From: Corynebacterium sp. | GTDB lineage: Bacteria > Actinomycetota > Actinomycetes > Mycobacteriales > Mycobacteriaceae | Direction: 5' to 3' | Length of the DNA stretch: 64,000 nucleotides | NCBI GenBank assembly: GCA_030530875.1 | Contig: JAUMUD010000002.1 | Span: 62,969 to 126,968 of the forward strand | In this document: positions 6,325 through 42,785 of the stretch, in pieces | How the letters are laid out: each line of letters opens with the position of its first letter | How positions within the stretch are numbered: the stretch's first letter is position 1 | Translations under genes and position numbers: made by a program | The notes under the pieces: generated by a model | Databases searched by the model: none | Told to the model about the DNA's origin: nothing | What the model saw: the letters and a program-made list of their open reading frames with translations, nothing else

Positions 6325-7326
6325 ATGACACAACAGTCAGAACAAGACTACAGCTCCGATGAGGTCTTTGAGGACCTAGATACCGGTAGTCGCCGCGGTC
6401 AAACTAATGACAATCCATCCGCCGACCTCGTTCGTGTCTATCTCAATGGTATTGGCAAGACCGCTCTGCTCTCCGCTGATGATGAAGTCGCTCTTGCCCA
6501 GACCATTGAGGTTGGCCTTTATGCCGAGTATTTGCTTGAGTTCTCCGAAGAACCGCTGACCCGCGCAAAGAAGCGCGACCTGAAGGTTTTGGTGAAGGAA
6601 GGCCGTCAGGCCCGCACCCATCTTCTTGAGGCTAACCTGCGTCTGGTTGTGTCCCTGGCTAAGCGCTATACCGGCCGCGGCATGCCACTTCTGGACCTCA
6701 TCCAGGAAGGCAACCTTGGTCTGATTCGTGCCATGGAGAAGTTCGACTATAAGAAGGGCTTCAAGTTCTCCACCTATGCTACGTGGTGGATTCGTCAGGC
6801 TATTACCCGCGGTATGGCCGACCAGTCCCGTACCATCCGCCTCCCGGTACACCTGGTTGAGCAGGTAAATAAGCTCTCCCGCATTAAGCGCGAGATGTAT
6901 CAGAACCTCGGCCGTGAAGCCACCAATGAGGAGCTCGCTGAAGAGTCCGGCATTGATGAGAATAAGATTGAGATGCTGCTCCGTCAGTCCCGCGACCCAG
7001 TTAGCCTGGATATGCCAGTTGGCGCCGATGAGGAAGCCCCACTGGGTGACTTCATTGAGGACTCTGAGGCCACCGATGCTGAGGCCGCCGTGGTTGCAAG
7101 CCTGCGCCACTCCGATATTCGCGCCGTGATCAATTCCCTTGAGCGCCGCGAGCAGGATGTGATTATTATGCGCTATGGTCTTGATGATGGCGTACCACGC
7201 ACCCTGGATCAGATTGGTCGCCGCTACGGTCTCTCCCGTGAGCGCGTCCGACAGATTGAGCGCGAGGTTATGTCGAAGCTTCGCGACGGTGAGCGTGCGG
7301 AGAAGCTCCGCGCCTACGCTGGCTAA
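6325..7326 (+). CDS. sigB: RNA polymerase sigma factor SigB
   Basis: [58 protein letters not shown]. Confidence 0.97.
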
Positions 7327-7391: not shown

Positions 7392-8075
7392 GTGAAGGAC
7401 CTCGTAGATACAACAGAAATGTATCTTCGTACTATTTACGAACTTGAAGAGGAGGGAGTGACCCCTCTTCGTGCTCGCATCGCCGAGCGCCTTGAGCAGT
7501 CTGGCCCAACGGTGAGTCAGACCGTCGCACGTATGGAGCGTGACGGTCTGGTCGTTGTTTCCAAGGACCGCAGCTTGCGCATGACCGCCGCAGGTCGCGC
7601 GCTGGCCACCGCTGTTATGCGTAAGCACCGCCTGGCTGAGCTGCTGCTCACTGAGATGGTGCACCTGGATATTCACAAGGTTCATGCTGAGGCTTGCCGC
7701 TGGGAGCACGTTATGAGCGAAGAGGTGGAGCGCTGCCTGGTCAAGGTGCTTCCTGATGTCTCCCGCTCCCCTTTTGGTAACCCAATCCCTGGTCTTGCTG
7801 AACTCGGTGTGAGCAATGAGCCTAAGATTTCTGCTGGTGTGCGTCTAATTGACCTGCCACAGCATGAGCCAGTCAAGGTACGCATTATCCAGCTCAATGA
7901 GATCCTGCAGGTCGATGATGAGCAGTACCGCGCTCTGACCTCCGCTGGCATCACCATTGGTAGCGAGGTTACCGCTTCCTTCGAAAGCGGCGTAGCTACA
8001 CTGACCAATGGCGACACCACCGTTGAGCTCGCTGATGACCTCGCTCATGCGATCCGCGTAGAGCCAATGGAATAA
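7392..8075 (+). CDS. dtxR: Iron-dependent repressor DtxR/IdeR
   Basis: [58 protein letters not shown]. Confidence 0.97.
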
Positions 8076-8110
8076 TGCTGGCGCGTCATTCCATTCAAAT
8101 CCATTAAGAA

Positions 8111-8137
8111 AAAGGGAGCCAACAGGCTCTTTTTTTC
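8111..8137. terminator. Terminator after dtxR (bidirectional)
   Basis: AAAGGGAGCC-AACA-GGCTCTTTTTTT. Confidence 0.75.
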
Positions 8138-9260
8138 ATGTGAGGATTGGGAGCGATGGTCGGTAGCTAAGGCAGGATTTTGTGATGAGATCCTCGACTG
8201 CATTGGCCGTGGTCTGCAGCAGGTGCATATACTGCCCTTCACTCATTACCCCTAGCAGCAGCTGGGAGAGCGAATGGCCGGGAGACGTCTCCAGCGCGAC
8301 TCTCAGCGCTGCCAGTGCATGGCTTGGCTGGCTGAGCGTAATCATGGACAGTGCATAGAGGCTGAGCGCATTGGCGCGTCGGTACTGTTGAGCACGCCAG
8401 CGCGGATAATTCTTGGTATTCGGACCAGGAGTTACTACTGTATGCAGAGTCTCCGCGGCGGCGAGCATGAGTTTGGAAAAAGGTGCGGCAGTACCCTTCA
8501 TCAGCGCAAAGAGCATTATGAGGTCACGGCTTAGCACATCTTCCAGCATGCTGAGTGCACAAAGCAGCGCGCTTTTATCCTTGGCAATATCCTCTTGGCT
8601 CGCCTCATCAAGACGGGTTAGGTGGAAGCTCATGGAGAGCATGATTTCATCCCCGGCAAGACCGCGCTCAATATCCACCAGCTCACTGGTATTATCCGAG
8701 CTTGGATGCAGGGCTTTATCGCGGTCAAGGCTGCGGGCCTGGGCCTGCTTGCGCAAATTCCCACGAGCTTGGGCGGTGATTTCCGTGTTGACCCCACGGT
8801 AGAGGCACATGAAGGATTCACGGTTTTCCGCCGGCGGGCTCGAATGGGCAAGCACCGAGGCAAAAGGCTTACCGACAGTGCCCAGCGGACTCTGCGTGTC
8901 CAGGACATCATCGCAGACCGTGCCAGGCTTTAAGCTATCGGTGAACAAGAAGTGATCCACGCGGTCACGGACTCGACGGAAGAGATCTGGCTCGGCCGGT
9001 CCGACATTGATACCGATGAGGACGTCGGTAGGCTCATAGGGCAGGCGGTCGAGGAGCATTTCGGCCGCATCATGATCCTCCAAATCAACGCGCCCAATCG
9101 GGCCGATGATAGTGGTGCCCTCGCCGCGCTGGGCGATTTCGGGGCAGTCGCGGTCCACGAGGGAGACCGTGCACAGGACAAAGGAGCGCTCGGGATAGTA
9201 GCCGAGGATATGCGGCACTGTCGCGAGAATATTTGGAATGTTGTAGCTGTATGTGTTCAT
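8136..9260 (-). CDS. DUF4192 family protein
   Basis: N-terminal ILATVPHILGYYPERSFVL and RVDL, late RANALSLYA...ALAAL..AL...PGHSLSQLL. Syntenic position after dtxR(-galE). Confidence 0.7.
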   Translation of the reverse strand: MNTYSYNIPNILATVPHILGYYPERSFVLCTVSLVDRDCPEIAQRGEGTTIIGPIGRVDLEDHDAAEMLLDRLPYEPTDVLIGINVGPAEPDLFRRVRDRVDHFLFTDSLKPGTVCDDVLDTQSPLGTVGKPFASVLAHSSPPAENRESFMCLYRGVNTEITAQARGNLRKQAQARSLDRDKALHPSSDNTSELVDIERGLAGDEIMLSMSFHLTRLDEASQEDIAKDKSALLCALSMLEDVLSRDLIMLFALMKGTAAPFSKLMLAAAETLHTVVTPGPNTKNYPRWRAQQYRRANALSLYALSMITLSQPSHALAALRVALETSPGHSLSQLLLGVMSEGQYMHLLQTTANAVEDLITKSCLSYRPSLPILT

Positions 9261-9440: not shown

Positions 9441-10310
9441 ATGGCCCTTTATACATTGGCGTATCCACAACCAGAAGCTATTGCTCCTAATGTTGACCTG
9501 GTTATTTCCCTGATGGGATTTGCCGATGCGGGCCATGCCTTGGCGCTGGTCAATGATTATATTGCCTCCACAATGGAGCTAATTCCGCTGGCGGAATTCG
9601 ACTCGGATGAGCTTGTGGATTATCGTGGGCGACGGCCGCAGACGCGTGTGGAGCGCTCCTTTGTGGCTGATATTGATGAGGCCAACCCAACGCTCTTTTT
9701 ATGCCGCTCCGACCAGGGTGAGTTTTTGCTTCTGGCCGGCTATGAGCCTGATTTTAAGTGGAAGGCTTTTGCCCGTGCGGTGCGCGATTTGGTGCACTAT
9801 TACAAGGTCGGGCGTGTGATTACGCTCTATGCTGCCCCGTTCCCGGTGCCACATACCCGCCCGCAGCTGATTTCGGCGCATAGCACTGAGCCAGAGATTC
9901 TGGCGGCGCATACGACAATCCCAGGAGCGATTACTGTTCCTGGTGCAGCACAGCTCTATGTGGAGCATTTCTTGGTCAACACTGCTGCCTGTTCGGTAAC
10001 GGGTTTGAACGCCCAGGTGCCGCAGTATATTGCGGGGAGTGATTATCCGCGCGCAGCGGTGAGTTTGCTGGAGTCCATTAGCTCCATTACTGGTGTTGGG
10101 CCAAATTTGCAGGCGCTTCGGCAGGATGCTGATAAGGTCCTTGAGGCCCTGGATGATTTGGCGGACAATGGGGAGCTTGGTCAGGTCGTCCTTGACCTAG
10201 AAAACCGGTACGATCAGATGGTGGATGAGTTGTCGGCCTACCGGCTCTCAAAGGACGATATTGAAGCCGAGGTGGCGAAATTCCTCTCGGAACTTGATGG
10301 AGATGATTAA
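9441..10310 (+). CDS. PAC2 family (proteasome assembly chaperone-like) protein
   Basis: GFADAGHA, FDSDELVDYRGRRP, GYEPDFKW, PHTRP, VPQYI...YPRAA. Confidence 0.85.
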   Translation: MALYTLAYPQPEAIAPNVDLVISLMGFADAGHALALVNDYIASTMELIPLAEFDSDELVDYRGRRPQTRVERSFVADIDEANPTLFLCRSDQGEFLLLAGYEPDFKWKAFARAVRDLVHYYKVGRVITLYAAPFPVPHTRPQLISAHSTEPEILAAHTTIPGAITVPGAAQLYVEHFLVNTAACSVTGLNAQVPQYIAGSDYPRAAVSLLESISSITGVGPNLQALRQDADKVLEALDDLADNGELGQVVLDLENRYDQMVDELSAYRLSKDDIEAEVAKFLSELDGDD

Positions 10311-12845
10311 TTGATGACCCTTACCCAGATGCTTCCTGATTTGTCGGAGGTTCCCGAGAATTATTTTGATGAGTCCATTTGGGACTCTTTTACTCGGTGG
10401 GTAGGGGATCGTGGAATCTCGCTCTATCCGGCCCAGGAGGAGGCCTCGCTGGGTATCCTGGCCGGGGATAATGTCATTCTTTCAACTCCGACTGGTTCGG
10501 GTAAGTCCATGGTGGCTATTGCCGCCCACTTTATTGCCATGGCCCGTGGTCAGCGCTCCTTTTATACCGCGCCGATTAAGGCGCTGGTGAGTGAAAAGTT
10601 CTTCGCGCTCTGTGAGATTTTTGGCGCGGAATCTGTGGGCATGATGACCGGTGATGCCTCGGTCAATACCAAGGCACCGATTATCTGCGCCACCGCTGAG
10701 ATTGTGGCCAATATTGCACTAGCTGAGGGGCCGGATTCGCGCGTGGATCAGGTCGTAATGGACGAGTTCCACTACTACTCTGACCCGGAACGCGGCTGGG
10801 CCTGGCAGGTGCCACTACTGGAGCTGCCAAAGACCCAGTTCCTTCTCATGTCGGCGACCCTTGGTGATACGGAGTTTCTGCGCAAGGACCTGGAAGAACG
10901 CACGGGCCGTGATACTACCCTGGTCACTGGCGTGGAGCGTCCAGTCCCCCTTGAGTTCTCCTATGTGTATACACCTGTCGAGGAGACCCTGGATGATTTG
11001 GTCACCAAGGATCTAGCACCGGTCTATGTGGTGCATCCGTCGCAACGCCAAGCTGTGGAGCGCGCGACCGGTCTGCAAAATACCCCGCTGGCCAATAAGC
11101 TGCTAAGCCGTGAAGAAAAGGACCAGGTTGCCGAGGCAATTGGGGACTTTCGCTTTACCACTACTTTTGGTAAGACCCTGAGTCGCCTGCTGCGCAAGGG
11201 CATTGGCATTCACCATGCCGGCATGCTGCCAAAGTATCGCCGACTGGTGGAGCGCCTGGCACAAACTGGCCTGCTCAAGATTATTTGCGGCACGGATACG
11301 CTGGGCATTGGTATTAATGTGCCAATTCGCACCGTGCTGATTACAAGTCTGACCAAATTCGATGGCAGCGGTGAGCGTGTGCTGCGTAGCCGTGAGTTCC
11401 ATCAGATTGCGGGTCGTGCGGGTCGTGCGGGTTTTGATACCAAGGGCACGGTGGTCATTGAGGCGCCGGAGCATGAGATTGAGAATTTCCGCCTGCGTAA
11501 GCGTGCCGGTCAGGATGAGAAGAAGCTCAAGAAGCTGCGCATGAAGGCGGCACCGAAGGGGCGTCCGACCTGGACGGAAAAGACCTATGAGCGCCTGATT
11601 GAGGCCGAGCCGGAGAAGCTCACGAGCCAGTTTAAGTTCACCAACTCCATGCTGCTCAATATGTTGGCGCGCCCAAGTTCGGGGCCGGATGAGACCTATG
11701 AGAATATCAAGCATTTGCTGCGCACCAATCACAATACGCGTAGCCGTCAGAATAAAGATATCCTCACCGCCATTGAGCTTTACCGTGGCCTGGAGGCCTT
11801 GGGTATTGTCAAGGACCATGCCTTGGCTAATGGCCTGCCGGAGGATTTTGCTTTGAACCAGCCACTGGCGCCTTTTGCTGTGGCGGCGCTAGAGCTGCTG
11901 GATAAGGACTCCCCTTCCTTCTCGCTGGATGTGATTTCGGTGATTGAGGCGGTGCTGGAGCCACCGAACCAGATTCTGCGCGCACAGCAGAATAAAGCGC
12001 GGCAGGAGGAGCGCCAGGCGCTGCGTGACGAGGGCGTGGACTATAACGAGCAGCTACGCATTCTTGATGAGGTCACCTGGCCAAAGCCACTCAATGACCT
12101 GCTCACTGAGGCCCATGAGACCTATGCCAAGGGCCATCCGTGGGCCGGCGATTATGAGATTGACCCCAAGAGTGTGGTGCGTGAGATGGTCGAACGTGGC
12201 ATGACCTTCTCGGACTTTATCTCTGAGTACGGGCTCGCGCGCGCTGAGGGTGTGGTGCTTCGCTACCTCACTGAGGCCTGGCGCACGCTTAATCAGACGG
12301 TGCCGGATGAGTTCTTCACCGAGCAGCTGGAGGATATTGCTATTTGGCTGGGTGAGCTCATCCGCCAGGTCGACTCCTCGCTTCTTGATGAGTGGGCGCA
12401 GATGGCTGACCCGGATGCGCCGATTGACCAGGCCACTGTGGAGCGTGAGATTGCTTTCGGTGTGACTGACCCGGATGCGCTTTCGGCCAATAAGCGCGCC
12501 TTTGGCATTATGATTCGTAACCTCATGTTCCGCCTGGTGGACTTCTTCGCCTGGGAGAAGGAAGATGACCTGGCACAGGTACTCGACTATCTGGAAGAGC
12601 AGCCTGAGTGGGGTGCGGCCATGGATGAGTACTTCAATGAGTACGCGGATGTGGATTTGGGTCCTGATGCGCGTGGGCCAAAGTACTTTGAGATTCAGTC
12701 CCAAAATGCTGAGGAATGGGTCGTGCGTCAGATTATCAAAGACCCCAATGATGATTGTGGCTTTGCCATCGTCGGCACCGTGGATGTTCCAGCCTCCGAT
12801 TCCGCTGGTGAGGTGCGATTTAAAAAGATTTCCTTGGAGTACTAG
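10311..12845 (+). CDS. Ski2-like DEAD/DEAH-box helicase with DUF3516 C-terminus
   Basis: PTGSGKS, YTAPIKALVSEK, DEFHYY, MSATLG, HHAGMLPKYR, QIAGRAGRAG. Confidence 0.9.
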   Translation: MMTLTQMLPDLSEVPENYFDESIWDSFTRWVGDRGISLYPAQEEASLGILAGDNVILSTPTGSGKSMVAIAAHFIAMARGQRSFYTAPIKALVSEKFFALCEIFGAESVGMMTGDASVNTKAPIICATAEIVANIALAEGPDSRVDQVVMDEFHYYSDPERGWAWQVPLLELPKTQFLLMSATLGDTEFLRKDLEERTGRDTTLVTGVERPVPLEFSYVYTPVEETLDDLVTKDLAPVYVVHPSQRQAVERATGLQNTPLANKLLSREEKDQVAEAIGDFRFTTTFGKTLSRLLRKGIGIHHAGMLPKYRRLVERLAQTGLLKIICGTDTLGIGINVPIRTVLITSLTKFDGSGERVLRSREFHQIAGRAGRAGFDTKGTVVIEAPEHEIENFRLRKRAGQDEKKLKKLRMKAAPKGRPTWTEKTYERLIEAEPEKLTSQFKFTNSMLLNMLARPSSGPDETYENIKHLLRTNHNTRSRQNKDILTAIELYRGLEALGIVKDHALANGLPEDFALNQPLAPFAVAALELLDKDSPSFSLDVISVIEAVLEPPNQILRAQQNKARQEERQALRDEGVDYNEQLRILDEVTWPKPLNDLLTEAHETYAKGHPWAGDYEIDPKSVVREMVERGMTFSDFISEYGLARAEGVVLRYLTEAWRTLNQTVPDEFFTEQLEDIAIWLGELIRQVDSSLLDEWAQMADPDAPIDQATVEREIAFGVTDPDALSANKRAFGIMIRNLMFRLVDFFAWEKEDDLAQVLDYLEEQPEWGAAMDEYFNEYADVDLGPDARGPKYFEIQSQNAEEWVVRQIIKDPNDDCGFAIVGTVDVPASDSAGEVRFKKISLEY

Positions 12846-21528: not shown

Positions 21529-21661
21529 GAGCACCATTATATAGACAACCGTAGAAGCGCAGAGAAAATTTTTCTCTTCTATGGTTTACGGGGGTGAGGT
21601 TTTTCGGTACACTAGGGTTTTAGTACAGTTGTTTGAAGCACTAGTGAACGGAAGAATTGCA

Positions 21662-22345
21662 ATGCCACCCCGCAAAAAGAGAATTACCAAACCTGCTGAC
21701 CTCTCCACCCGTCAGCAGCAGATTCTGGCTGTGATCCAGAATTCGGTCAGCCTTCGTGGCTACCCTCCTACCATCCGTGAGATTGGTAAGGCCACTGGCC
21801 TTACCTCCACTTCCTCGGTGGCCTACCAGCTTGAAGTTCTTGAGAAGCATGGCTTCCTCAAGCGCGGTGAGCGTGGTGCTCGCGCCTATGCCGTGAAGGA
21901 AGATAAGGAACTGCACAAGGTCCTCAAGGAACTCACGGAAGACCCTGCTGACTATGACTTTAGCGCCAATTATGTTCCCGTGGTTGGCACCATAGCAGCT
22001 GGCACGCCAATTACCGCCAAGCAGAATATTCAGGATTATTTCGCCATGCCGAAGTCCATGGTGAAGGATGAAAATAGCTTCGCTTTGAAGGTGAAGGGTG
22101 ACTCCATGATTAACGCAGGAATCATGGATGGCGACTGGGTTGTCGTTCAGCCACAACATACTGCGGAAAATAAAGAGATTGTCGCCGCTCTCATTGATGG
22201 TGAGGCCACCGTGAAGTATTGGGATACCAATGAGGCGGATAAGGGGCAAATCTGGCTTCAGCCCGCCAATGAGAATTACGAACCTATTGATGGCAATAAC
22301 GCCATTATTCTCGGCAAAGTAGTCTCCTTGCTCCGCAAGTACTAG
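21662..22345 (+). CDS. lexA: SOS repressor LexA
   Basis: GYPPTIREIG, STSSVAYQL, GTIAAG (A-G cleavage site), VKGDSM (Ser), EATVK (Lys), GKVVSLLR. Confidence 0.95.
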   Translation: MPPRKKRITKPADLSTRQQQILAVIQNSVSLRGYPPTIREIGKATGLTSTSSVAYQLEVLEKHGFLKRGERGARAYAVKEDKELHKVLKELTEDPADYDFSANYVPVVGTIAAGTPITAKQNIQDYFAMPKSMVKDENSFALKVKGDSMINAGIMDGDWVVVQPQHTAENKEIVAALIDGEATVKYWDTNEADKGQIWLQPANENYEPIDGNNAIILGKVVSLLRKY

Positions 22346-22908: not shown

Positions 22909-23994
22909 ATGCGTAGTACACGACGTTTAATGTTGCATGGCCGCAAGGCCGTGGTCGCCGGTGCTCTTTGCTTGAGCGTAGCTGGCTCACTTAGCGCAAT
23001 CCCAGCAGCACATGCGGATACCACCACGACTACAGAAACCCAAGAGACTGATTATCAGCGAGATGTGAGGATCTTCAAGAACATCTACACTTCTGCTCAG
23101 AACCGTATTAAGGCTAATACCAAGCTGACTACGAGTGAGCAGGAAGACTGGCTGAAGTATCTGTCTGACGAGGCTAAGACCGCCTGTGCTCCAGCTCTGA
23201 TGACAGAGGATCTCGACCAGGCTGCACGCAATGAGCTCTCCCAGCAATGCCGCACCAAGGTCAATGCTGTTGATGCACTGATTCAGGCTAGTGCTGGCCT
23301 CTCTACTGAGAAGAATGCAGCCAAGGATGAGATTAACTCCCTGGCATATCTGACCGAAAAGCAGAAGGCTGATTATGACAGCGAGATCACCACTGCTGCT
23401 AAGAAGGTCGACCAGGATCAGCTCGTTTCCACCTCTGTTCCAGTGGACCTGAGCGATGTCCAGGTTGGTGTTATCTCTAATATTATGGAGAGCGCTCGCA
23501 CTGCCAACCTTGATGGCCTGAAGAACCTCTTCACCCAGTATGTCAGCTCTTATAGCACCCTCACCGATGCGGAGCGCAACGGCTACATCAACTGGGTTGG
23601 CATTATCACTGATAACACCGCTTCCACCATCAGCACCATTGAGGAGCGCTTTGCTGATGCAGCCCGCGCATACTTGGCCAGTGCTCAGAATGCCACTAAT
23701 ATCTCTGTGGCAATGACCAACATTGACAATATCCTCAAGACTGACAACCCTGGTACTGATAAGATCACCGAGATCAATGATGTTGTCACCCTGGCTGCAC
23801 CACTGAATCCATATTCCCGCGACCTTGAGTCTGGCCGTGGTACCCCACTGGATGAGGTTCCAGGTGAGGCCAGCACCAGCAGCAAGATTCCAACCTGGCT
23901 CTGGTACGTCATCGGTGCTGCGGGTATTGGTCTCATCGGTGCGATTGCTGGCGCCATTGGCTCCGCACTCCACCTGCTGCCAAACCAGCAATAA
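22909..23994 (+). CDS. Secreted surface protein with GA-module-like helical repeats and C-terminal membrane anchor
   Basis: Signal peptide ending AHA, repeats such as AAKDEINSLAYLTEKQKADYDSEI, hydrophobic C-terminus WYVIGAAGIGLIGAIAGAIG. GAAAGG RBS. Confidence 0.7.
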   Translation: MRSTRRLMLHGRKAVVAGALCLSVAGSLSAIPAAHADTTTTTETQETDYQRDVRIFKNIYTSAQNRIKANTKLTTSEQEDWLKYLSDEAKTACAPALMTEDLDQAARNELSQQCRTKVNAVDALIQASAGLSTEKNAAKDEINSLAYLTEKQKADYDSEITTAAKKVDQDQLVSTSVPVDLSDVQVGVISNIMESARTANLDGLKNLFTQYVSSYSTLTDAERNGYINWVGIITDNTASTISTIEERFADAARAYLASAQNATNISVAMTNIDNILKTDNPGTDKITEINDVVTLAAPLNPYSRDLESGRGTPLDEVPGEASTSSKIPTWLWYVIGAAGIGLIGAIAGAIGSALHLLPNQQ

Positions 23995-30881: not shown

Positions 30882-31151
30882 ATGGCTTCCAAGACTGTTA
30901 CCGTCGGCTCCACCGTTGGTCTCCACGCTCGTCCAGCCACCATCATCGCTGAGGCTGCTGGCGAGTACGATGAGGACATCTTCCTCACCCTCGTTGGCTC
31001 TGACGATGACGAAGAGACTGAGGCTGCCTCCTCCCTTATGATCATGGCTATGGGTGCTTCCCACGGCGACCAGATCACCGTCACCTCCGAGAACGCTGAG
31101 GCTGTTGAGAAGATCGCAGCTCTCATCGAGAAGAATCTCGACGAGGAGTAA
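30882..31151 (+). CDS. ptsH: Phosphocarrier protein HPr
   Basis: MASKTVTVGSTVGLHARPA (His15), AASSLMIM. Confidence 0.96.
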   Translation: MASKTVTVGSTVGLHARPATIIAEAAGEYDEDIFLTLVGSDDDEETEAASSLMIMAMGASHGDQITVTSENAEAVEKIAALIEKNLDEE

Positions 31152-31171: not shown

Positions 31172-31196
31172 AACCGGGCTTCGGCCCGGTTTTTTT
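31172..31196 (+). terminator. Terminator after ptsH
   Basis: AACCGGGC-TTCG-GCCCGGTT-TTTTT. Confidence 0.85.
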
Positions 31197-31323
31197 ATTC
31201 CCCAAGTCTTTTCGAAACTGCGTAACGGCCGTGCACTTAAGGCCCGCACAAAAGCCAAGCCCGCTACAGTACTTCCTCGTTCCAAAGTGAGATACACCAC
31301 AGTAGGGCAAAATTTTTTCTTTA

Positions 31324-31355
31324 TTAGTAAACTTTTTAGTAAAATCTTTAGTTAA
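31324..31355. promoter_or_regulatory. Candidate GalR operator upstream of permease/alpha-galactosidase
   Basis: Three TTAGTAAA-like repeats (TTAGTAAA, TTTTAGTAAAA, TTTAGTTAA); the same motif occurs upstream of galK. Confidence 0.6.
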
Positions 31356-31421: not shown

Positions 31422-33356
31422 ATGAGTACAACCACGGGCATTGCGACCGGCCAACATACGGGCGCAAATATGAAGGCGCGAATCTCTTATTCCATTGGCG
31501 CCTTTGGTAATGACGTCTTCTATGCCACGCTGTCGACGTACTTCATCATCTTCGTCACCTCCCACCTCTTTAATACCGGTGACACTGCTCATAACAACCG
31601 CATGGTTCTCTATGTCACGCAGATTATTGCGGCCGTGCGTATCCTTGAGCTAATCCTTGACCCATTCATCGGCAATCTGATTGATAACACCCGTACTCGC
31701 TGGGGCAAGTTCAAGCCGTGGATTGTGGTCGGCGGCATTGTTGGTTCCATCGCGCTGCTGGTGCTCTTCACCAACCTTGGTGGTCTTAATGAGAGCCACC
31801 CGGTTCTTTACCTGATTGTCTTCGCGATTATCTACATCATCATGGACATGTTCTATTCCTTCAAGGACATTTCCTTCTGGTCCATGGTGCCAGCCCTAAG
31901 CTTCAGCTCTGAGGAACGTGAAAAGACCGCTACCATGGCCCGTATTGGTTCCACCATTGGTGGCAACCTGGTCGGCGTTGTGGTTATGCCACTGGTGCTC
32001 TTCTTCTCCCTCAATAAGCACGATGGTGTGGGCGATAACCGTGGTTGGTTCATGTTCGCATTGATTGTGGCCCTGGTTGGTATCTTCACTGCCCTGGTTG
32101 TGGCCTTCGGCACCAAGGAAATTGACCATGAGATGCGCAAGAATACCCACAAGACTACCCTCAGGGGTGTATTCAAGGCGCTGATTAAGAATGACCAGCT
32201 CATGGCCATCTCGCTCTCCTATGTGCTCTACTGCACCGGCGCCACCATCATCAACGCCTCCCAGCTTTACTACTTCACCTACATTCTTGGTAATGCTGCT
32301 CAGTTCTCCATTCTGGGCACCATCAATATGCTCGTAGGCCTGATTTCGGTCTCCCTCTTCCCGAAGCTGGCTAGCAAGTTTAACCGCCGCAACCTCTTCT
32401 TCTACTGCATTGCAGTCATGGTTCTTGGTGTTGTGGTCTTCTTCTTCGCTGGCAAGTCCCTTGCCCTGGTCCTCATCGCTGCTGAGCTCTTCTTCATCCC
32501 TCAGCCACTGGTCTTCCTGGTTGTCCTCATGACCATCACTGACTGCGTGGAATATGGCCAGCTCAAGCTCGGCCACCGCGATGAATCCCTCACCCTCTCT
32601 GTCCGTCCAATGCTGGATAAGTTCGCTGGCGCTATCGGCAACCTCGTTATCGGTGCCGCTGCTGTGGCTGCTGGCATGACCACCGGCGCTACCGCTGAGA
32701 CTGTGACCAGCTCCGGTATCTGGTCCTTCAAGATCTACATCTTCCTCATCCCAGTCATCCTCATCCTGCTGGGTACCTTGGTATTCTTCTTCCGCGTGAA
32801 GCTCACCGAGGAACGCCATGCTGAAATTGTGGAAGAGCTTGAGCGCACCTGGGGTAAGGAAACTGCCTCCGAGGCTAGTGTTGCTGTGAGAACCAAGAAG
32901 CAGGAAATCCGCACCCCAATCCTTGGTTATCTCCACCCACTGAGCGATGTGAAGGATCCTGCCTTTGCGGCCGGTAAGCTTGGCCAGGGCTTTGCAATTA
33001 AGCCTCTCAATGGCAAGGTCTATGCCCCATTCTCTGGCACTGTCAAGGTCCTCTTCCCAACCAACCACGCCATTGGTATTGAGTCTGATGACGGTGTAGT
33101 TCTCCTCATCCACATTGGTCTTGGTACCACGAAGCTTAAGGGCGAAGGCTTTAGCACCTTTGTCGCCCAAGGTCAGCGTGTGGAAGCCGGCCAGAAGCTC
33201 ATCAAGTTTGATGAGGACTTCATTGAGGAAAGTGGCTTGGATAATACGGTCATTATGACTGTCACCAATGCCGATCAGTTCAGCACCATTCATATTGAGG
33301 GTGAGCCAGGTCGCCTGGTCACCATCGAGGATAATGTCTTGGAATTGGAGCGCTAA
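31422..33356 (+). CDS. lacS: LacS/RafP-type GPH-family galactoside:cation symporter with C-terminal EIIA-like domain
   Basis: ISYSIGAFGNDVFY, DPFIGNLIDNTRTRWGKFKPW, GHRDESLTLSVRP, then a IIA domain DPAFAAG.LGQGFAI, NHAIG, LIHIGLGT. Confidence 0.88.
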   Translation: MSTTTGIATGQHTGANMKARISYSIGAFGNDVFYATLSTYFIIFVTSHLFNTGDTAHNNRMVLYVTQIIAAVRILELILDPFIGNLIDNTRTRWGKFKPWIVVGGIVGSIALLVLFTNLGGLNESHPVLYLIVFAIIYIIMDMFYSFKDISFWSMVPALSFSSEEREKTATMARIGSTIGGNLVGVVVMPLVLFFSLNKHDGVGDNRGWFMFALIVALVGIFTALVVAFGTKEIDHEMRKNTHKTTLRGVFKALIKNDQLMAISLSYVLYCTGATIINASQLYYFTYILGNAAQFSILGTINMLVGLISVSLFPKLASKFNRRNLFFYCIAVMVLGVVVFFFAGKSLALVLIAAELFFIPQPLVFLVVLMTITDCVEYGQLKLGHRDESLTLSVRPMLDKFAGAIGNLVIGAAAVAAGMTTGATAETVTSSGIWSFKIYIFLIPVILILLGTLVFFFRVKLTEERHAEIVEELERTWGKETASEASVAVRTKKQEIRTPILGYLHPLSDVKDPAFAAGKLGQGFAIKPLNGKVYAPFSGTVKVLFPTNHAIGIESDDGVVLLIHIGLGTTKLKGEGFSTFVAQGQRVEAGQKLIKFDEDFIEESGLDNTVIMTVTNADQFSTIHIEGEPGRLVTIEDNVLELER

Positions 33357-35656: not shown

Positions 35657-35687
35657 AGGGCTGGGTGGAATATACCAGCCCTTTTTT
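35657..35687 (+). terminator. Terminator after aga
   Basis: AGGGCTGG...CCAGCCCT-TTTTT. Confidence 0.75.
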
Positions 35688-35724
35688 GCTTGTATAATCA
35701 CGCCAGTGAAGGAAGAGGTATCAC

Positions 35725-36723
35725 GTGCCAACTATTAAAGATATTGCGGCCAAGGCAAAGGTGTCTGTGGCAACTGTCTCTCGTGTGCTCAATAATGATG
35801 AGACCATGTCGGCCACGCAGGAAACCCGCGATAAGATTTTTGCCATCGCTGATGAGCTGGGTTATACCAAACATAAGCGGAATAATCAGGTGACTAATCG
35901 CTCACTGGCCATTATTCAGTGGTTCAGTGAAGCTGAGGAAACCGATGACCTGTACTACTACTCCATCCGTATCGGCATTGAGCGTAAAGCCCAGGAACTT
36001 GGCTATGAGATTATCCGCATCTTCAACAATGACCCCATCGACCCAATTGAAAAGGTCGATGCCGTCATCGCCGTGGGTAAATACAGCTCTGCCCAAATCC
36101 TCCATTTCAGCCGCCTCAATCCTGTCATCTTCTTTGTGGATAGCGACACGCTGGAACAAGGCTTTACCTGCATCACCACGGACTTTAGCCATGCTGTGGT
36201 TGAAGTCCTCGACCACTTCATCCACAAAGGCCACCGCCATATTGGCATGATTACTGGCAGTGAGCGCACTAGCGACCAAACCGAAGAACTTGAAGACCCC
36301 CGCATTCAGACCTTCACCTACTACCTGGAACAGCGCGGCCTCTTCAACGCTAACTATGTCTACACCGGCGTATTCTCCACCCAAAGTGGCTACGAACTTA
36401 TGAAGGAAGCCCTGGAAGAACACGGGGACGACCTCCCCGATGCGTTCTTTATTGCCAGCGATGCCCTCGCCGTCGGTGCCCTGCGCGCCCTGCAGGAAGC
36501 CGGCAAGAATGTGCCCGAAGATGTCAGCATCATTTCCTTCAATGACACAGCCATTGCGAAACAGGTCTTCCCACCTCTGTCTTCCGTATCCGTCTTTACA
36601 GAAGAAATGGGTGCCCGCGCAGTCTCCGAAGCACACGCCTACCTCGAGCACGCCATCCCTGATGTCCCCTACCTCATTCGCCTCGGAACCCACCTTACCC
36701 TGCGTAAATCTAGCAAGAACTAA
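35725..36723 (+). CDS. galR: LacI-family galactose repressor GalR
   Basis: TIKDIAAKAKVSVATVSRVLN HTH, DLYYYSIRIGIE (streptococcal GalR-like), sugar-binding domain. TATAAT upstream. Confidence 0.88.
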   Translation: MPTIKDIAAKAKVSVATVSRVLNNDETMSATQETRDKIFAIADELGYTKHKRNNQVTNRSLAIIQWFSEAEETDDLYYYSIRIGIERKAQELGYEIIRIFNNDPIDPIEKVDAVIAVGKYSSAQILHFSRLNPVIFFVDSDTLEQGFTCITTDFSHAVVEVLDHFIHKGHRHIGMITGSERTSDQTEELEDPRIQTFTYYLEQRGLFNANYVYTGVFSTQSGYELMKEALEEHGDDLPDAFFIASDALAVGALRALQEAGKNVPEDVSIISFNDTAIAKQVFPPLSSVSVFTEEMGARAVSEAHAYLEHAIPDVPYLIRLGTHLTLRKSSKN

Positions 36724-36725
36724 AC

Positions 36726-36770
36726 TTTAGTAAAATTTTACTTGAAAAGTTTACTAAAATATTTTATGCT
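36726..36770 (+). promoter_or_regulatory. galK promoter and overlapping GalR operator
   Basis: -35 TTGAAA (36742-36747), 17 nt spacer, -10 TATGCT (36765-36770). Perfect palindrome AGTAAAATTTTACT (36729-36742) plus TTTACTAAA (36750-36758). Confidence 0.75.
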
Positions 36771-36776
36771 TGAGCT

Positions 36777-37943
36777 ATGAATACCACACAGCTCCATAGT
36801 TCTTTTGCTTCTATCTTTGGCTACGAACCCGAAGCCTCTTTCTTCTCCCCTGGCCGAATCAACCTCATCGGCGAGTACACCGACTTCAACGGTGGCCATG
36901 TCTTCCCTGCTGCTATCAGCTTGGGCACCTGGGGTGCTGCTAAGGCCAGGGAGGATAATCTCCTCCGCTTCTACTCGGCGAACTTTAGCGATGATGGCAT
37001 CATCGAAGTTGACCTTGCTGACCTAAGTTTTAAGACGGAACATGGCTGGGCCAACTACGCCAAGGGCGTTCTTCTCTTCCTGCAGGAAGCAGGCCATAAG
37101 CTTCCTCATGGCTTTGACCTCTTCATTGAGGGCACCATCCCTAATGGTGCGGGCCTCTCCTCCTCTGCCTCCCTGGAATTGCTCATTGGCATTGTGGCCG
37201 AAAAGCTCTTTGACCTGAAACTTGAGCGCCTTGACCTGATTAAAATTGGCAAGCTCACGGAAAATAAGTACATTGGCGTGAACTCCGGCATTATGGACCA
37301 GTTCGCCATTGGCATGGGTGCGGAAAAGCGCGCCATCTACCTGGATACCAATACCTTGGAATATGAGCTGGTTCCTCTGGACCTCGGCGATAATGTCATT
37401 GTCATTATGAACACCAATAAGCGCCGTGAACTGGCCGATTCCAAGTACAATGAGCGCCGCGCGGAATGTGAAAGCGCACTGGCTGATCTGCAAAAGGGCA
37501 TCAATATTGCCACCCTCGGTGACCTCGATGAAGCCACCCTCGATCAGTATGCCTATCTCATTAACGGCCATAACTGCCTCAAGCGTGCCCGCCATGCCGT
37601 GTGGGAAAACCGCCGCGTGGAACGCGCCACCACTGCCCTTCGTGCTGGTGAACTGGCCGAATTTGGCCGCCTGGTCAATGCCTCCCATGTATCCCTTGAG
37701 CATGACTTTGAAGTCACAGGCAAGGAACTGGACACCCTGGTCCACGCCGCCTGGGCGCAGGATGGTGTGGTTGGTGCCCGCATGACTGGTGCCGGTTTCG
37801 GCGGCTGCGCCATTGCCATTGTCAACAAGGATAAGGTTGAAGCATTCACCAAGGCCGTCACCGAGATCTACACCAAAGAGATCGGCTACGCCCCAAGCTT
37901 CTACCCGGCCGAAATTGCCGATGGTGCACGCGCACTGGACTGA
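36777..37943 (+). CDS. galK: Galactokinase
   Basis: [45 protein letters not shown]. The signature reads GEYTDFN instead of GEHTDYN. Confidence 0.95.
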
Positions 37944-38003: not shown

Positions 38004-39491
38004 ATGAAACGTGTTGATGCACTGGCCAGCGCTATTATCGCGCAGAGCGACTATACCGAGCTGGATCGAATCTACCTCCGTAACCGCCTCTTCGCCCTCA
38101 TCGGTGAGGACACTGGCAATGCGGAAACCCAGGAAACTGAACTCATCCCATTGGTCCATGAGCTTGGCCCCGATGAGATTCTCACCAGTGCCGTGATGGA
38201 CTTCATCACCCCACCACCGCACGTGGTCAATGCCCAGTTCTGGAATGACTATGCGGTTGATCCGCAGAAAGCAATCAGCAATTTCTACTCTCTCAATTGC
38301 CGCAATGACTACATCAAGCTTGGAGATATTGCGCGCAATATTGAGTTCACCGCCCCATCCGACTACGGCGATATTGAAATCACTATCAATCTCTCCAAGC
38401 CGGAAAAAGACCCCAAGGCCATCGCTGCTGCTAAGAACGCACCTCAAAGCGACTACCCTCTCTGCCAGCTGTGCATGGAAAACGAGGGCTACGCTGGCCG
38501 TGTCAACCACCCGGCCCGTGCCCAGCACCGCATCATTCGCGTCGAGCTCGACGATGAAAACAAGAAAAATAGCAAAACTAACACCACCTGGAAGCACACA
38601 TGGGGCTTCCAGTATTCCCCCTATGCTTATTTCAATGAGCACTGCATTTTCCTCGATGCTGAACACAGCCCGATGGAAATCACCACGCAGACTTTCCGCG
38701 AGCTCCTGCAGCTAGTTGATCTTTTCCCCGGCTACTTCGCGGGCTCCAATTCTGATCTTCCGATTGTGGGTGGTTCCATTCTTAGCCATAACCACTATCA
38801 GGGTGGCCGCCACATATTCCCAATGGATAAGGCCAGTACGGAGTACGAATTCACACTCAAGGGTGTGAAGGCCGAAATCCTTAAGTGGCCAATGAGTGTT
38901 ATCCGGCTCCGCAGCGATGATCCGCACGCACTAATAGAAGCTGCTGAGCACGTTGCGGAAAGTTGGAAGACTCATAGCGATGAAACCGTCGATGTCATCG
39001 CAAACAGCAATGGCACCCGCCACCATACGGTCACGCCTATTGCCCGCAAGGATGGCGATGCGTATATCCTCAACCTGGTTCTTCGTGATAATCACACCAG
39101 CGAAGAGCACCCTGATGGTGTCTTCCATCCACACAAGGATGTGCAGCATATTAAGAAGGAAAATATTGGTCTCATTGAGGTCATGGGCCTGGCTATTCTG
39201 CCACCGCGCCTCAAGGAAGAGATGGCTGCAGTCGAGCGCTATCTGCAGGACACCACTGCGGATGAGCAGGCAGCAATTCGCACCAGTGGCATTGCTGAAT
39301 ACCACCTTGAATGGGCGAGAAATATCAAAGCCGCAAACCCCCAGCGTGCTATAATTGACACATCTGCGCTGGTAAAAGAAGAAATCGGCCACGTATTTGT
39401 CCGAGTTCTTGAAGATGCCGGCGTTTTTAAGTGCGATGAGCAAGGCCGCGCAGCCTTCCACCGCTTCCTCAACCTGATTGGAGAATCATAA
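38004..39491 (+). CDS. galT: Galactose-1-phosphate uridylyltransferase, Firmicute (class II) type
   Basis: [76 protein letters not shown]. Confidence 0.95.
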
Positions 39492-40483
39492 TGGCTATCC
39501 TCGTCCTGGGTGGTGCCGGATATATCGGCTCCCATATGGTGGATTATCTCGTTAATAAGACGGATGAGGAGGTCATTGTTGTCGATAACCTGGTCACCGG
39601 GCACCGTGCCGCCGTGCACCCTGATGCCACCTTCTATGAGGGCGATGTGGCCGACCAGGACTTCATGCGTGGAGTCTTCAAGGCGCATGATATTGATGCG
39701 GTCATTCACTTCGCGGCCTACAGCCTTGTGGCTGAGTCCATGGAAAAGCCACTGAAGTATTTTGATAATAATACTGCCGGTATGGTGAAGCTTCTTGAGG
39801 TCATGAATGAGGCCGGTGTGAAGAATATTGTCTTCTCCTCCACGGCTGCTACATATGGTATTCCGGAAGAGATGCCAATCCGTGAGACCACCCCACAGAA
39901 GCCAATTAACCCTTATGGTGAGTCCAAGCTCATGATGGAGACCATCATGAAGTGGGCTGATAAGGCCTATGGGATTCACTATGTGCCACTGCGTTACTTC
40001 AATGTGGCTGGTGCTAAGCCGGACGGTTCCATTGGTGAGGACCACAATCCGGAAACCCACCTGCTGCCAATTGTTCTTCAGGTGGCTGCAGGCAAGCGCG
40101 AAAAGATCTTCATTTTCGGCAATGACTACAACACCCCGGATGGCACCAATGTGCGCGACTATGTGCACCCATTTGACCTTGCCAGCGCCCATATGAAGGC
40201 CGTGGAATACCTGCGTAAGGGTAACCCTTCCACCGCCTTTAACCTTGGTTCGGCCAATGGCTTCTCCAATTTGGAAATTGTGGAGGCTGCCCGCAAGGTG
40301 ACCGGCCACCCAATCCCTGCTGAGCTCTCCGATCGCCGCCCTGGCGACCCAGATACCCTCATTGCCTGCTCTGATAAGGCCCGTGAGGTGCTCGGTTGGA
40401 CCCCTGAGTTCGACACCATGGAGAAAATTATCGCCACTGCTTGGGCATGGCATTCCAGCCACCCAGACGGCTTTAATGACTAA
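39491..40483 (+). CDS. galE: UDP-glucose 4-epimerase
   Basis: [34 protein letters not shown] (YxxxK), [19 protein letters not shown] overlap with galT. Confidence 0.96.
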
Positions 40484-40499: not shown

Positions 40500-40532
40500 G
40501 AACCCGAGGACTCGAAGTCTTCGGGTTCTTTT
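40500..40532. terminator. Terminator after galE (bidirectional)
   Basis: GAACCCGAGGACT-CGA-AGTCTTCGGGTTC-TTTT. Confidence 0.8.
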
Positions 40533-41499: not shown

Positions 41500-42774
41500 T
41501 TACTTGCGACCCTCACCAACAGTTTCGAAGAGCTTCTTCATGATTGGGTAAATGATAATCACACCAATACTACCCCATGCAATGCCCTGAAGCTGAAGGG
41601 AGCCAACATTGAGGGTGAGGTTACCGATGCCGGCAATAAGAGCAACGGCAGCGGCAGTAAGGTTCACTGGATTGGTGAAGTCCACCTTATTTTCCTGCCA
41701 GATGCGAATACCCAGCATACCAATCAGGCCGTAGAGCACGATAGTGGCGCCACCGAGCACGCCATTAGGAATAGTAAGAACCAGCGCACCAAACTTAGGC
41801 ACAAAGGCAAGCAGAATAGCGCAGGCAGCAGCAACCCAATAGGCCGCGGTGGAATAGACCTTGGTAGCAGCCATCACACCAATATTTTCAGCATAGGTGG
41901 TGGTACCGGAACCACCGAAACCACCGGCGAGGGTGGTAGCGAGGCCGTCGGCAAGCAGAGCGTCGCCGGCGAGATCATCAAGGTTGCGCTTGGTCATATT
42001 AGACACAGCCTTAACGTGGCCAACATTTTCCGCAATGAGAACAATAATGACAGGAATGGTAATGAATACCACGTTGAGGTGCATGGATGGGTGGTGGAAC
42101 TGTGGGAGACCAATCCAGGCAGCGGAGTTAATGGTTTCGCGGGTGCCCTCAGGAACATTGCCGGTCAGAGCAGCGAAAATCCAGCCCACAATCACACCGA
42201 TAAGAATGGAGAGGCGGTTAATCATGCCGCGACCAATCACGGTGCAGAGAATAATCACAAGAAGGGTGACACCAGCAACCAGTGGCTGCTTTTGGAAATC
42301 AGAGGTGGCCGCACCAGCAAGGTTAAGACCAATGAAAGCAACAATGGCACCGGAAACCACGGGTGGCAGAACCGCATCAAGGACGCGTCGGCCAGCAATT
42401 TTAACAATAATACCGACAATCAAAAGCGCAATACCGGCAGCCAACACACCACCGACCTGAGCATTAATACCCTGCGCCTGAGAGGCCGTGAGAGGCGCAA
42501 TGAAGGCGAAGGAGGAGCCCAGATAGGAGGGGAGGCGGTTGCGGGTAATGAGCAGGAAGAGAATCGTGCCGATACCGGAGAACAGCAGCGTGGTATTAAC
42601 CGGGAATCCGGTCAAGGTAGGCACAAGAAGGGTCGCACCAAACATTGCTACAACATGCTGTAGACCAATGCCAATGGTGCGACCCCAACTCAGTCGTTCT
42701 TCTGGTGCAACAACGGCACCAGGTTTAATGTGTTTGCCGTCACCGTGGACGGTCCATCCCCAAGAATTACTCAT
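41500..42774 (-). CDS. uraA: Uracil/xanthine permease (NCS2 family)
   Basis: QHVVAMFGAT, PSYLGSSFAFI, AENVGHVKAV, TTYAENIGV. Confidence 0.92.
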   Translation of the reverse strand: MSNSWGWTVHGDGKHIKPGAVVAPEERLSWGRTIGIGLQHVVAMFGATLLVPTLTGFPVNTTLLFSGIGTILFLLITRNRLPSYLGSSFAFIAPLTASQAQGINAQVGGVLAAGIALLIVGIIVKIAGRRVLDAVLPPVVSGAIVAFIGLNLAGAATSDFQKQPLVAGVTLLVIILCTVIGRGMINRLSILIGVIVGWIFAALTGNVPEGTRETINSAAWIGLPQFHHPSMHLNVVFITIPVIIVLIAENVGHVKAVSNMTKRNLDDLAGDALLADGLATTLAGGFGGSGTTTYAENIGVMAATKVYSTAAYWVAAACAILLAFVPKFGALVLTIPNGVLGGATIVLYGLIGMLGIRIWQENKVDFTNPVNLTAAAVALIAGIGNLTLNVGSLQLQGIAWGSIGVIIIYPIMKKLFETVGEGRK

Positions 42775-42785
42775 GACCCCCAATA

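What the first reader, a model, noticed from the sequence alone, without database searches (positions are those of the whole stretch)
8075..8140. galE is missing from the conserved dtxR-galE operon; possible xenologous replacement
In C. glutamicum and C. diphtheriae galE directly follows dtxR. Here dtxR ends at a terminator and DUF4192 follows at once. The only galE in the window (39491-40483) looks streptococcal and lies in a GalR-controlled catabolic operon. Corynebacteria need UDP-galactose for arabinogalactan, so a cell-wall function may now depend on an acquired, sugar-regulated gene.
Basis: partly seen in the sequence, partly recalled or inferred. Interest (0 to 1): 0.55.

Follow-up and report, generated by a model that had tools for sequence, protein, structure and literature searches.

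The report
Foreign galE replaces lost native gene
This Corynebacterium and its sister species have lost the usual galE gene next to dtxR, and the only UDP-glucose 4-epimerase left is an anciently acquired streptococcal-type copy inside a galactoside-utilisation operon, so the sugar donor for their cell-wall galactan probably now comes from a foreign gene; it is a clean example of a known kind of gene replacement.

Summary
dtxR (7392-8075) ends 60 bp before the converging DUF4192 gene, with a hairpin plus T-run between them and no galE. Of 24 sampled genomes of the genus, 20 have galE directly after dtxR, 2 have it 7.3 kb away, and 2 have lost it.

The assembly is 93.9% complete. Its only protein over the GalE cut-off is window 39491-40483. 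tblastn finds no remnant of the native, "type 2" or GalE1-like epimerases.

This GalE is 82-85% identical to streptococcal GalE and 46-51% to native corynebacterial GalE. In a tree it nests inside Streptococcus. Only 2 of 321 species genomes of the genus carry it: this one and a collinear sister that shows the same loss.

The gene closes a 9.2-kb lacS-aga-galR-galKTE insert between ptsH and uraA. The insert's GC3 equals the host's, and it is under purifying selection. Streptococcal-type operator boxes survive before lacS and galK. glf is present, so UDP-galactose is needed.

Xenologous displacement is well supported. Dependence of the cell wall on a sugar-regulated promoter is inferred, not shown. 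One paper reports a C. glutamicum galE knockout, which weakens the essentiality assumption.

The parts
6325..7326 (+). sigB, upstream neighbour of dtxR in the conserved sigB-dtxR-galE cluster
   Evidence: NF005920 602 bits; 87-91% identical in relatives
7392..8075 (+). dtxR (iron-dependent repressor)
   Evidence: NF053665 274 bits; Pfam DtxR SH3, Fe_dep_repr_C and Fe_dep_repress
8076..8135 (.). 60-bp junction where native galE lies in most relatives. It holds the hairpin 8116-8129 with an A-run and a T-run (a possible bidirectional terminator) and no galE remnant.
   Evidence: sequence; hairpin flagged; tblastn finds no remnant
8136..9260 (-). DUF4192 gene converging on dtxR
   Evidence: PF13830 73 bits; same position in relatives, after galE
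30882..31151 (+). ptsH (HPr), the last native gene on the left of the insert; its terminator is at about 31173-31197
   Evidence: PF00381; synteny with G006 and G020; sequence
31323..31355 (+). three tandem operator-like boxes (ATTAGTAAA, TTTAGTAAA, TTTAGTTAA) upstream of lacS
   Evidence: same motif as the streptococcal galR-galK intergenic repeats
31422..33356 (+). lacS/rafP-type GPH galactoside permease with a C-terminal EIIA domain
   Evidence: TIGR00792 497 bits, PF13347 and PF00358
33357..35648 (+). GH36 alpha-galactosidase (aga)
   Evidence: PF02065 524 bits, with GH36 N- and C-terminal domains
35725..36723 (+). LacI-family regulator galR. It runs in the same direction as galK, unlike streptococci where it is divergent. 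A TATAAT lies at about 35693-35698 upstream.
   Evidence: PF00356 and PF13377; 53-60% identical to streptococcal GalR on the opposite strand; sequence
36724..36776 (+). galR-galK intergenic operator and promoter. Boxes TTTAGTAAA (36726-36734) and its inverted copy TTTACTAAA (36750-36758); palindrome AGTAAAATTTTACT (36729-36742); TTGAAA-17-TATGCT (36742-36770) ends 6 nt before the galK ATG.
   Evidence: about 93% conserved against the sister, although dS is about 0.7-1.7 in the flanking genes; shared with streptococci
36777..37943 (+). galK (galactokinase)
   Evidence: NF003705 635 bits; 71-73% identical to streptococcal GalK
38004..39491 (+). galT, long Firmicute-type hexose-1-P uridylyltransferase
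   Evidence: NF003631 711 bits, TIGR01239 641 bits; 53-59% identical to streptococcal GalT
39347..39355 (+). TGCTATAAT inside the galT 3' end, 135 nt before galE; a weak candidate for an internal promoter
   Evidence: one of 2 matches in the window against 1.1 expected; the sister has TGCTAAGAT; not significant on its own
39491..40483 (+). galE, the only GalE-family gene found in the assembly. It is streptococcal-type; its start overlaps the galT stop (TAATG), with GGAG 9 nt upstream.
   Evidence: TIGR01179 430 bits; 82-85% identical to Streptococcus; tree; [17 protein letters not shown] and YGESK motifs aligned to 2C20; sequence
40500..40528 (+). strong terminator after galE (13-bp stem plus T-run); right end of the insert
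   Evidence: sequence
41500..42783 (-). uraA-type permease, the first conserved native gene on the right of the insert
   Evidence: PF00860; in G006 ptsH and uraA are 1.4 kb apart

Best explanation
This is a xenologous gene displacement. An ancestor of this species and its sister acquired a streptococcal-type galactoside/Leloir module (lacS-aga-galR-galK-galT-galE) between ptsH and uraA. The native galE that follows dtxR in most corynebacteria was then lost (the order of gain and loss is inferred). The acquired GalE is intact and is the only UDP-glucose 4-epimerase detectable, so it most likely supplies UDP-galactopyranose to Glf for cell-wall galactan as well as serving galactose catabolism.

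Its transcription probably comes mainly from the galK promoter, which is overlapped by streptococcal-type GalR boxes. Three possible sources of basal expression exist: leakiness of that promoter, read-through from the galR promoter (no terminator separates galR from galK), and an unproven internal promoter in galT.

Shown: the loss, the foreign origin, the age of the transfer, the purifying selection, the conserved operator and the presence of glf. Inferred: the cell-wall role, essentiality and the regulatory mode.
For: Loss: dtxR is followed after 60 bp by the converging DUF4192 gene. 20 of 24 congeners have dtxR-galE adjacent.

Sole copy: only one TIGR01179 hit lies over the cut-off in the assembly. 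The next hit is RmlB, which is followed by rmlC. The other SDRs are identified as RmlD, CmrA, DprE2, NmrA-like and generic. tblastn with native, type-2 and GalE1-like epimerases gives nothing else.

Independent confirmation: the sister genome G239 (91% complete) is collinear, also lacks galE after dtxR, and also has only the island GalE.

Foreign origin: 82-85% identity to Streptococcus GalE against 46-51% to native corynebacterial GalE. The window plus G239 clade (SH-aLRT 99) sits inside a Streptococcus/Lactobacillales clade (100), separated by a long branch from Mycobacteriales GalE. GalK, GalT and GalR also match streptococci best, in the order galK-galT-galE. Only 2 of 321 species of the genus carry this type.

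Insert borders: ptsH and uraA are neighbours in G006.

Ancient and maintained: GC3 is 0.55-0.67, equal to the genome's 0.60 +/- 0.05, against 0.29-0.32 in streptococcal galE. dN/dS is 0.045-0.09, with dS 0.7-1.7 against the sister, like core genes.

Regulation: TTTAGTAAA boxes occur exactly only upstream of lacS and galK. They are identical to the streptococcal galR-galK repeats and conserved in the sister.

Need for UDP-Gal: glf is over its cut-off in G000 and G239. DprE2, mycolate reductase and RmlB/C/D are present.

Enzyme intact: the NAD and S/Y-x3-K motifs align to B. anthracis GalE 2C20.
Against: The assembly is a draft (67 contigs, 93.9% complete), so a copy in a gap cannot be strictly excluded, although the sister draft also lacks one.

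No expression or essentiality data exist for this organism. A paper reports constructing a C. glutamicum galE knockout strain (PMC13478042). This suggests galE is not always indispensable in the genus, or that other epimerases can substitute.

At least three high-quality congeners (G008, G223, G248) have no GalE over the cut-off at all. G008 keeps only a GalE1/RmlB-like SDR.

The sign of GalR control is uncertain. GalR is described as an activator in S. thermophilus (PMC6090898) and, from memory, as a repressor in S. mutans. The internal promoter candidate is not statistically supported and is not fully conserved.
Confidence: 0.8

Rival explanations
1. A native (actinobacterial) galE, or another GalE-like epimerase, exists but lies in the roughly 6% of the genome that was not assembled. 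The island galE would then be merely an extra catabolic copy.
For: The assembly has 67 contigs and 93.9% completeness. Some congeners carry two or three GalE-family genes.
Against: The native locus itself is intact and contiguous in a 134-kb contig with no galE. The independently assembled sister genome shows the same single GalE. No fragments are found by tblastn at E<=10.
Confidence: 0.07
2. The island galE is purely catabolic. UDP-galactose for the wall comes from an unrecognised, non-GalE-family epimerase, or from GalK/GalT acting on host-derived galactose, so the gene is dispensable for the envelope.
For: A C. glutamicum galE knockout strain was reported as obtained. G008, G223 and G248 lack any GalE over the cut-off yet G008 keeps glf. 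GalK plus GalT can make UDP-Gal from galactose without GalE (established Leloir biochemistry).
Against: No candidate was found. All Epimerase-family hits in the genome are assigned to other functions, and the GalE1-like gene that G008 retains is absent here. galE is among the most conserved island genes (90% against the sister, dN/dS 0.073).
Confidence: 0.12
3. The transfer went the other way, or came from a third donor: the Corynebacterium lineage or some other taxon gave this GalE type to streptococci.
For: The island's composition is now indistinguishable from the host's, so composition gives no direction.
Against: The type is found in 2 of 321 Corynebacterium species but throughout Streptococcus. 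The two corynebacterial sequences are nested within, not basal to, the streptococcal clade. The operator repeats and the galKTE order are those of streptococci.
Confidence: 0.01

Closest known systems
sigB-dtxR-galE gene cluster of Corynebacterium diphtheriae and C. glutamicum (Oram, Jacobson & Holmes 2006, J Bacteriol 188:2959, as cited in PMC5784534; the paper itself was not readable here)
   Same: The flanking order is the same: sigB-dtxR ... DUF4192(-)-PAC2-helicase. dtxR is 60-70% identical to congeners.
   Different: galE is missing from the cluster. dtxR is followed directly by a hairpin and the converging DUF4192 gene.
Streptococcal Leloir operon galR | galK-galT-galE (S. mutans, S. 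thermophilus/salivarius, S. equinus group; operator described in PMC6090898 after Vaughan et al. 2001)
   Same: The gene order galK-galT-galE is shared, as are the TTTAGTAAA(A) operator repeats next to the galK promoter. Identities are GalE 82-85%, GalK 71-73%, GalT 53-59% and GalR 53-60%.
   Different: Host is a mycolic-acid actinobacterium. galR runs in the same direction as galK instead of divergently. The second operator box is inverted and lies inside the promoter spacer. The galK leader is lost (the -10 ends 6 nt before the ATG). GC3 has risen from about 0.3 to about 0.6. The module is fused to a lacS-aga module carrying its own boxes.
Mycobacterial GalE1 (Rv3634c / MSMEG_6142) feeding Glf-GlfT1-GlfT2 galactan synthesis (PMC5389812; PMC10951656)
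   Same: The presumed role is the same: UDP-Glc to UDP-Galp for wall galactan. glf is present here.
   Different: It is a different GalE subfamily. A GalE1-like SDR (about 160-180 bits on TIGR01179) exists in some corynebacteria (G008, G005 and others) but not in this genome.
Xenologous / non-orthologous gene displacement as a general phenomenon (established concept; from my own knowledge)
   Same: A housekeeping function passes to a horizontally acquired homologue and the ancestral gene is lost.
   Different: Here the replacement crosses phyla, supplies an essential-envelope precursor, and arrives embedded in a regulated catabolic operon whose donor operator is retained.

Membership tests
UDP-glucose 4-epimerase GalE (TIGR01179) | Whole-protein score above the curated cut-off (262.3 bits) | tested here: met
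   430.4 bits; 429.9 in the genome scan
UDP-glucose 4-epimerase GalE (TIGR01179) | N-terminal GxxGxxG NAD-binding motif and the catalytic Ser/Thr ... Tyr-x3-Lys triad of extended SDRs | tested here: met
   [17 protein letters not shown] and YGESK align with the same residues of B. anthracis GalE 2C20 (E 1e-113)
UDP-glucose 4-epimerase GalE (TIGR01179) | Measured UDP-Glc/UDP-Gal interconversion | not testable with these tools
   needs an enzyme assay
Streptococcal galR/galKTE Leloir operon | Contiguous galK-galT-galE with proteins closest to streptococcal ones | tested here: met
Streptococcal galR/galKTE Leloir operon | A/T-rich GalR operator repeats (TTTAGTAAAA) at the galK promoter | tested here: met
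   exact boxes at 36726-36734 and 36750-36758 (inverted), identical to the S. ratti, S. orisratti and S. equinus intergenic repeats
Streptococcal galR/galKTE Leloir operon | galR divergently transcribed from galK | tested here: not met
   galR is on the same strand, upstream of galK
Corynebacterial sigB-dtxR-galE cluster | galE immediately downstream of dtxR | tested here: not met
   60-bp gap, then the converging DUF4192 gene. Present in 20 of 24 sampled congeners.
Recently acquired genomic island | Deviant base composition or codon usage | tested here: not met
   island GC3 0.55-0.67 against genome 0.60 +/- 0.05
Recently acquired genomic island | Insertion between genes that are adjacent in relatives | tested here: met
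   ptsH and uraA are 1.4 kb apart in G006 and 10.3 kb apart here
Recently acquired genomic island | Integrase, transposase, flanking tRNA or direct repeats | tested here: inconclusive
   No mobility gene among the ORFs scanned from 24 to 44 kb. Repeats and tRNAs were not specifically searched.
Arabinogalactan-containing (mycolata) envelope needing UDP-Gal | UDP-galactopyranose mutase Glf present | tested here: met
   TIGR00031 345 bits at G000:C38; also in G239, G008 and G009

The most novel reading that the evidence does not exclude
Supply of an essential cell-wall precursor in a mycolic-acid bacterium has been handed entirely to a cross-phylum xenolog that is still wired to its donor's GalR operator. 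If so, either envelope galactan synthesis is coupled to galactoside availability in the host niche, or the streptococcal regulatory circuit has been re-tuned to give constitutive basal galE. That re-tuning could have used the galR inversion (allowing read-through), a leaderless galK promoter, or an internal promoter. The genus shows at least three independent losses of the dtxR-linked galE, each with a different back-up epimerase. That would make galE a natural experiment in replacing an envelope gene.
Probability: 0.3. Interest if true: 0.6.

Novelty: new member of a known kind. Interest (0 to 1): 0.4.

Why it matters
GalE feeds Glf/GlfT galactan synthesis, a validated drug-target pathway in the Mycobacteriales. 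This case shows that the gene can be swapped for a Firmicute homologue. It also shows that the dtxR-linked copy has been lost independently several times in Corynebacterium, each time leaving a different epimerase. That bears on how essential and how replaceable this step is, and on how a housekeeping need is met from inside a regulated catabolic operon. It also warns annotators that a 'catabolic' galE may be the only housekeeping one. It is still one more example of xenologous displacement, not a new mechanism.

Tried and rejected
(1) I looked for a second GalE with TIGR01179, PF01370 and tblastn using three corynebacterial epimerase types. Only RmlB and unrelated SDRs turned up.

(2) I looked for galE remnants in the dtxR-DUF4192 gap of this genome and its sister. 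There are none, and the two gaps do not even align; each has its own hairpin.

(3) I tested whether the island is compositionally foreign. It is not, so 'recent island' is rejected.

(4) I tested TGNTATAAT as an internal galE promoter. There are 2 matches in the window against 1.1 expected, and the site is altered in the sister, so the result is inconclusive.

(5) I tried to read Oram et al. 2006 (PMC1447015). It is not held.

(6) I searched for 'cg2104' to find essentiality data. The search returned only human CpG probe IDs.

(7) A literature search for a prior description of a streptococcal galE in Corynebacterium found nothing relevant.

(8) A shared loss with G008 or G009 is rejected. A four-protein tree puts G000+G239 next to G013, and puts G009 with G006/G020 (SH-aLRT 98), all of which keep dtxR-galE. 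That tree has only 8 taxa.

(9) The genome G031 (unpublished) was counted only as one of 41 genomes in the tallies.

Full report
**1. The observation**

The window is G000:C62:62969-126968, from a 2.19-Mb draft of 67 contigs that is 93.9% complete. ORF listing and family scans give this order:
- sigB, 6325-7326
- dtxR, 7392-8075 (NF053665; Pfam DtxR SH3 plus both iron-repressor domains)
- a 60-bp gap
- DUF4192, 8136-9260, on the minus strand
- PAC2, 9441-10310
- a DEAD/DUF3516 helicase, 10311-12845

The gap holds AAAAAGG-GAGCC-AACA-GGCTC-TTTTTTT. The scan flags the hairpin at 8116-8129. It is short, and such sites are not enriched in this region, so calling it a terminator rests on where it sits between two converging stop codons. 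There is no galE here.

**2. How conserved is dtxR-galE?**

I compared the coordinates of GalE (TIGR01179) and DtxR hits in 24 genomes of the genus.
- In 20 genomes galE lies directly downstream of dtxR, with gaps of about 10-170 bp.
- In G018 and G021 it lies 7.3 kb downstream.
- In G008 and G009 it is absent from the locus.

tblastn on fetched loci shows the ancestral order sigB-dtxR-galE-DUF4192(-)-PAC2-helicase. G008 and G009, like this genome, have dtxR facing DUF4192 directly.

Genus-wide:
- 315 of 321 species genomes have a GalE over the cut-off.
- About 25 of them have only a lower-scoring type (best E 1e-82 to 1e-96). G009's copy of this type lies far from dtxR. Adjacency was not checked for the others.
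- Six genomes have none, three of them high quality (G008, G223, G248).

So the link is the rule, but loss recurs. A small tree of SigB+DtxR+PAC2+helicase places G000+G239 beside G013, and G009 with G006/G020 (SH-aLRT 98). All of these neighbours keep galE, so the losses are independent (8 taxa only).

**3. Is there another GalE in this genome?**

TIGR01179 finds one hit over the cut-off, the window gene at 430 bits. The next hit, 87 bits on contig C39, is RmlB (TIGR01181 357 bits) followed by rmlC. The other PF01370 hits are RmlD, mycolate reductase, DprE2, an NmrA-like NAD(P)-binding protein and generic SDRs. I ran tblastn against the whole assembly at E<=10 with three queries: a native dtxR-linked GalE (G006), G009's type-2 GalE and G008's GalE1/RmlB-like protein. 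It returned only the window galE and rmlB.

**4. The sister genome**

Only one other genome of 321 in the genus carries the same GalE type: G239 (91% complete). It matches the record 'MAG: Corynebacterium sp. isolate S11A_Sa_2_sub'. It is collinear with the window from before sigB to beyond feoB. Its dtxR is followed by a different hairpin and then DUF4192. It has the same insert, and the island gene is again its only GalE over the cut-off. Two independent drafts agree, so an assembly gap is an unlikely explanation.

**5. Origin of the gene**

The window GalE is 90% identical to the sister's and 82-85% identical to GalE of S. macedonicus, infantarius, salivarius, sobrinus, henryi and others. 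It is only 46-51% identical to native corynebacterial GalE.

In a maximum-likelihood tree (LG+C20, quick search), window+G239 form a pair (SH-aLRT 99). That pair sits inside a Streptococcus/Ligilactobacillus clade (100), with S. sanguinis and S. cristatus branching outside. A long branch separates this clade from the Mycobacteriales GalE clade.

The best non-corynebacterial matches of the neighbouring genes are also streptococcal, in the order galK-galT-galE: GalK 71-73%, GalT 53-59%, GalR 53-60%. In streptococci galR is divergent; here it runs in the same direction as galK.

**6. The insert**

The native genes fruR-pfkB-ptsF-ptsH (to 31151) and uraA-hflX (from 41500, minus strand) flank the insert. 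In G006, ptsH and uraA are 1.4 kb apart. In G020 a different 12-kb segment lies between them.

The insert spans about 31.3-40.5 kb and encodes:
- a LacS/RafP-type GPH permease with an EIIA tail
- a GH36 alpha-galactosidase
- GalR, GalK, GalT and GalE

I re-derived its borders and origin independently.

**7. Age and selection**

Island GC3 is 0.55-0.67, against 0.60 +/- 0.05 for 885 long ORFs of the genome. Streptococcal galE has GC3 0.29-0.32. Against the sister, island genes show dS 0.7-1.7 and dN/dS 0.045-0.09 (galE 0.073), the same range as core genes. The transfer is therefore old, predates the split of the two species, and all six genes are maintained by selection.

**8. Regulation (mostly inference)**

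- Exact TTTAGTAAA boxes occur at only two places in the 64-kb window. With one mismatch there are 14 matches against 5.5 expected, and 0 of 100 shuffles reach 14.
- One place is a triple tandem at 31323-31355, upstream of lacS.
- The other is in the 53-nt galR-galK spacer: a box at 36726-36734 and its inverted copy at 36750-36758.
- The same repeats sit next to the galK -35 in S. ratti, S. orisratti, S. equinus and others. They correspond to the GalR operator described for S. thermophilus (PMC6090898).
- The spacer is about 93% identical in the sister although synonymous sites are near saturation. This argues for function.
- A TTGAAA-17-TATGCT promoter-like site ends 6 nt before the galK ATG (the sister has TATTAT). 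This suggests a leaderless or very short-leader mRNA.
- One box lies inside the promoter spacer, which fits repression better than activation, but the sign of control is not established.
- galT and galE overlap (TAATG) with a GGAG upstream. A strong terminator follows galE. No terminator separates galR from galK.
- A perfect TGCTATAAT lies in galT, 135 nt before galE. It is one of 2 such sites in the window against 1.1 expected, and the sister has TGCTAAGAT, so it is weak.

**9. Need for UDP-galactose**

glf is present over its cut-off here and in G239, G008 and G009. DprE2, mycolate reductase and the rhamnose-linker genes are also present. In mycobacteria, GalE1 -> Glf -> GlfT1/2 builds the galactan (PMC10951656; PMC5389812).

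The window GalE has the NAD motif and the catalytic S/Y-x3-K residues of solved GalE 2C20. It is therefore the only visible source of UDP-Gal when no galactose is supplied. GalK plus GalT could supply UDP-Gal from external galactose.

**10. Caveats**

- No expression or genetic data exist for this organism.
- One paper lists a C. glutamicum galE knockout among the strains it obtained and gives no wall phenotype (PMC13478042).
- Some congeners lack any canonical GalE.
- Essentiality of galE in this genus should therefore not be assumed.

**11. Verdict**

The functional corollary, that the cell wall depends on an acquired sugar-regulated gene, is plausible but untested. It is a new instance of a known evolutionary process and is of moderate interest.

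Noticed in passing
window 8136-9260 (-) and 9441-10310 (+): The DUF4192 protein is only about 35% identical between this genome and its sister, and PAC2 is 67%, while the flanking SigB, helicase and DtxR are 97%, 89% and 84%. DUF4192 is evolving unusually fast, or has been replaced, right beside the deletion point.
   Followed up: partly
window 22909-23994 (+), in the GC trough at about 21-24 kb (GC 0.48): A low-GC ORF has only a weak GA-module hit and is 27% identical to the sister's counterpart. It sits between lexA (21581-22345) and sugR (24219-25016) and looks like a variable surface-protein-like gene.
   Followed up: no
G008 (L013), G009 (L014), G223, G248: Other Corynebacterium species have independently lost the dtxR-linked galE. 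G009 keeps only a distant 'type 2' GalE (291 bits) 1.1 Mb away. G008 keeps only a GalE1/RmlB-like SDR (164 bits), yet has glf.
   Followed up: partly
G018 (L015) and G021: About 7.3 kb is inserted between dtxR and galE in two congeners. I did not examine its content.
   Followed up: no
G020 (L116/L117), between ptsH and uraA: The ptsH-uraA junction that holds the gal insert here holds a different segment of about 12 kb in G020 and 1.4 kb in G006. This junction appears to be a recurrent insertion site.
   Followed up: no
L026 (Oribacterium sp. MAG, CAVAFU010000002.1): A Lachnospiraceae MAG carries a galR/galKTE locus whose GalE is nearly identical to S. equinus-group GalE and groups with it in the tree. 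This is either a recent transfer or a mis-binned streptococcal contig.
   Followed up: no
window 35660-35724: The aga-galR spacer has a terminator (GGGCTGG...CCAGCCC-T6) and a perfect TATAAT before galR. The sister has an extra insert of about 80 bp and a different -10 (TATACT), so galR expression signals differ between the two species.
   Followed up: partly
window 40544-41465 (-): Two small ORFs (140 and 159 aa) lie between the galE terminator and uraA and have no Pfam hit. The second is 87% conserved in the sister; the first was not matched there.
   Followed up: no
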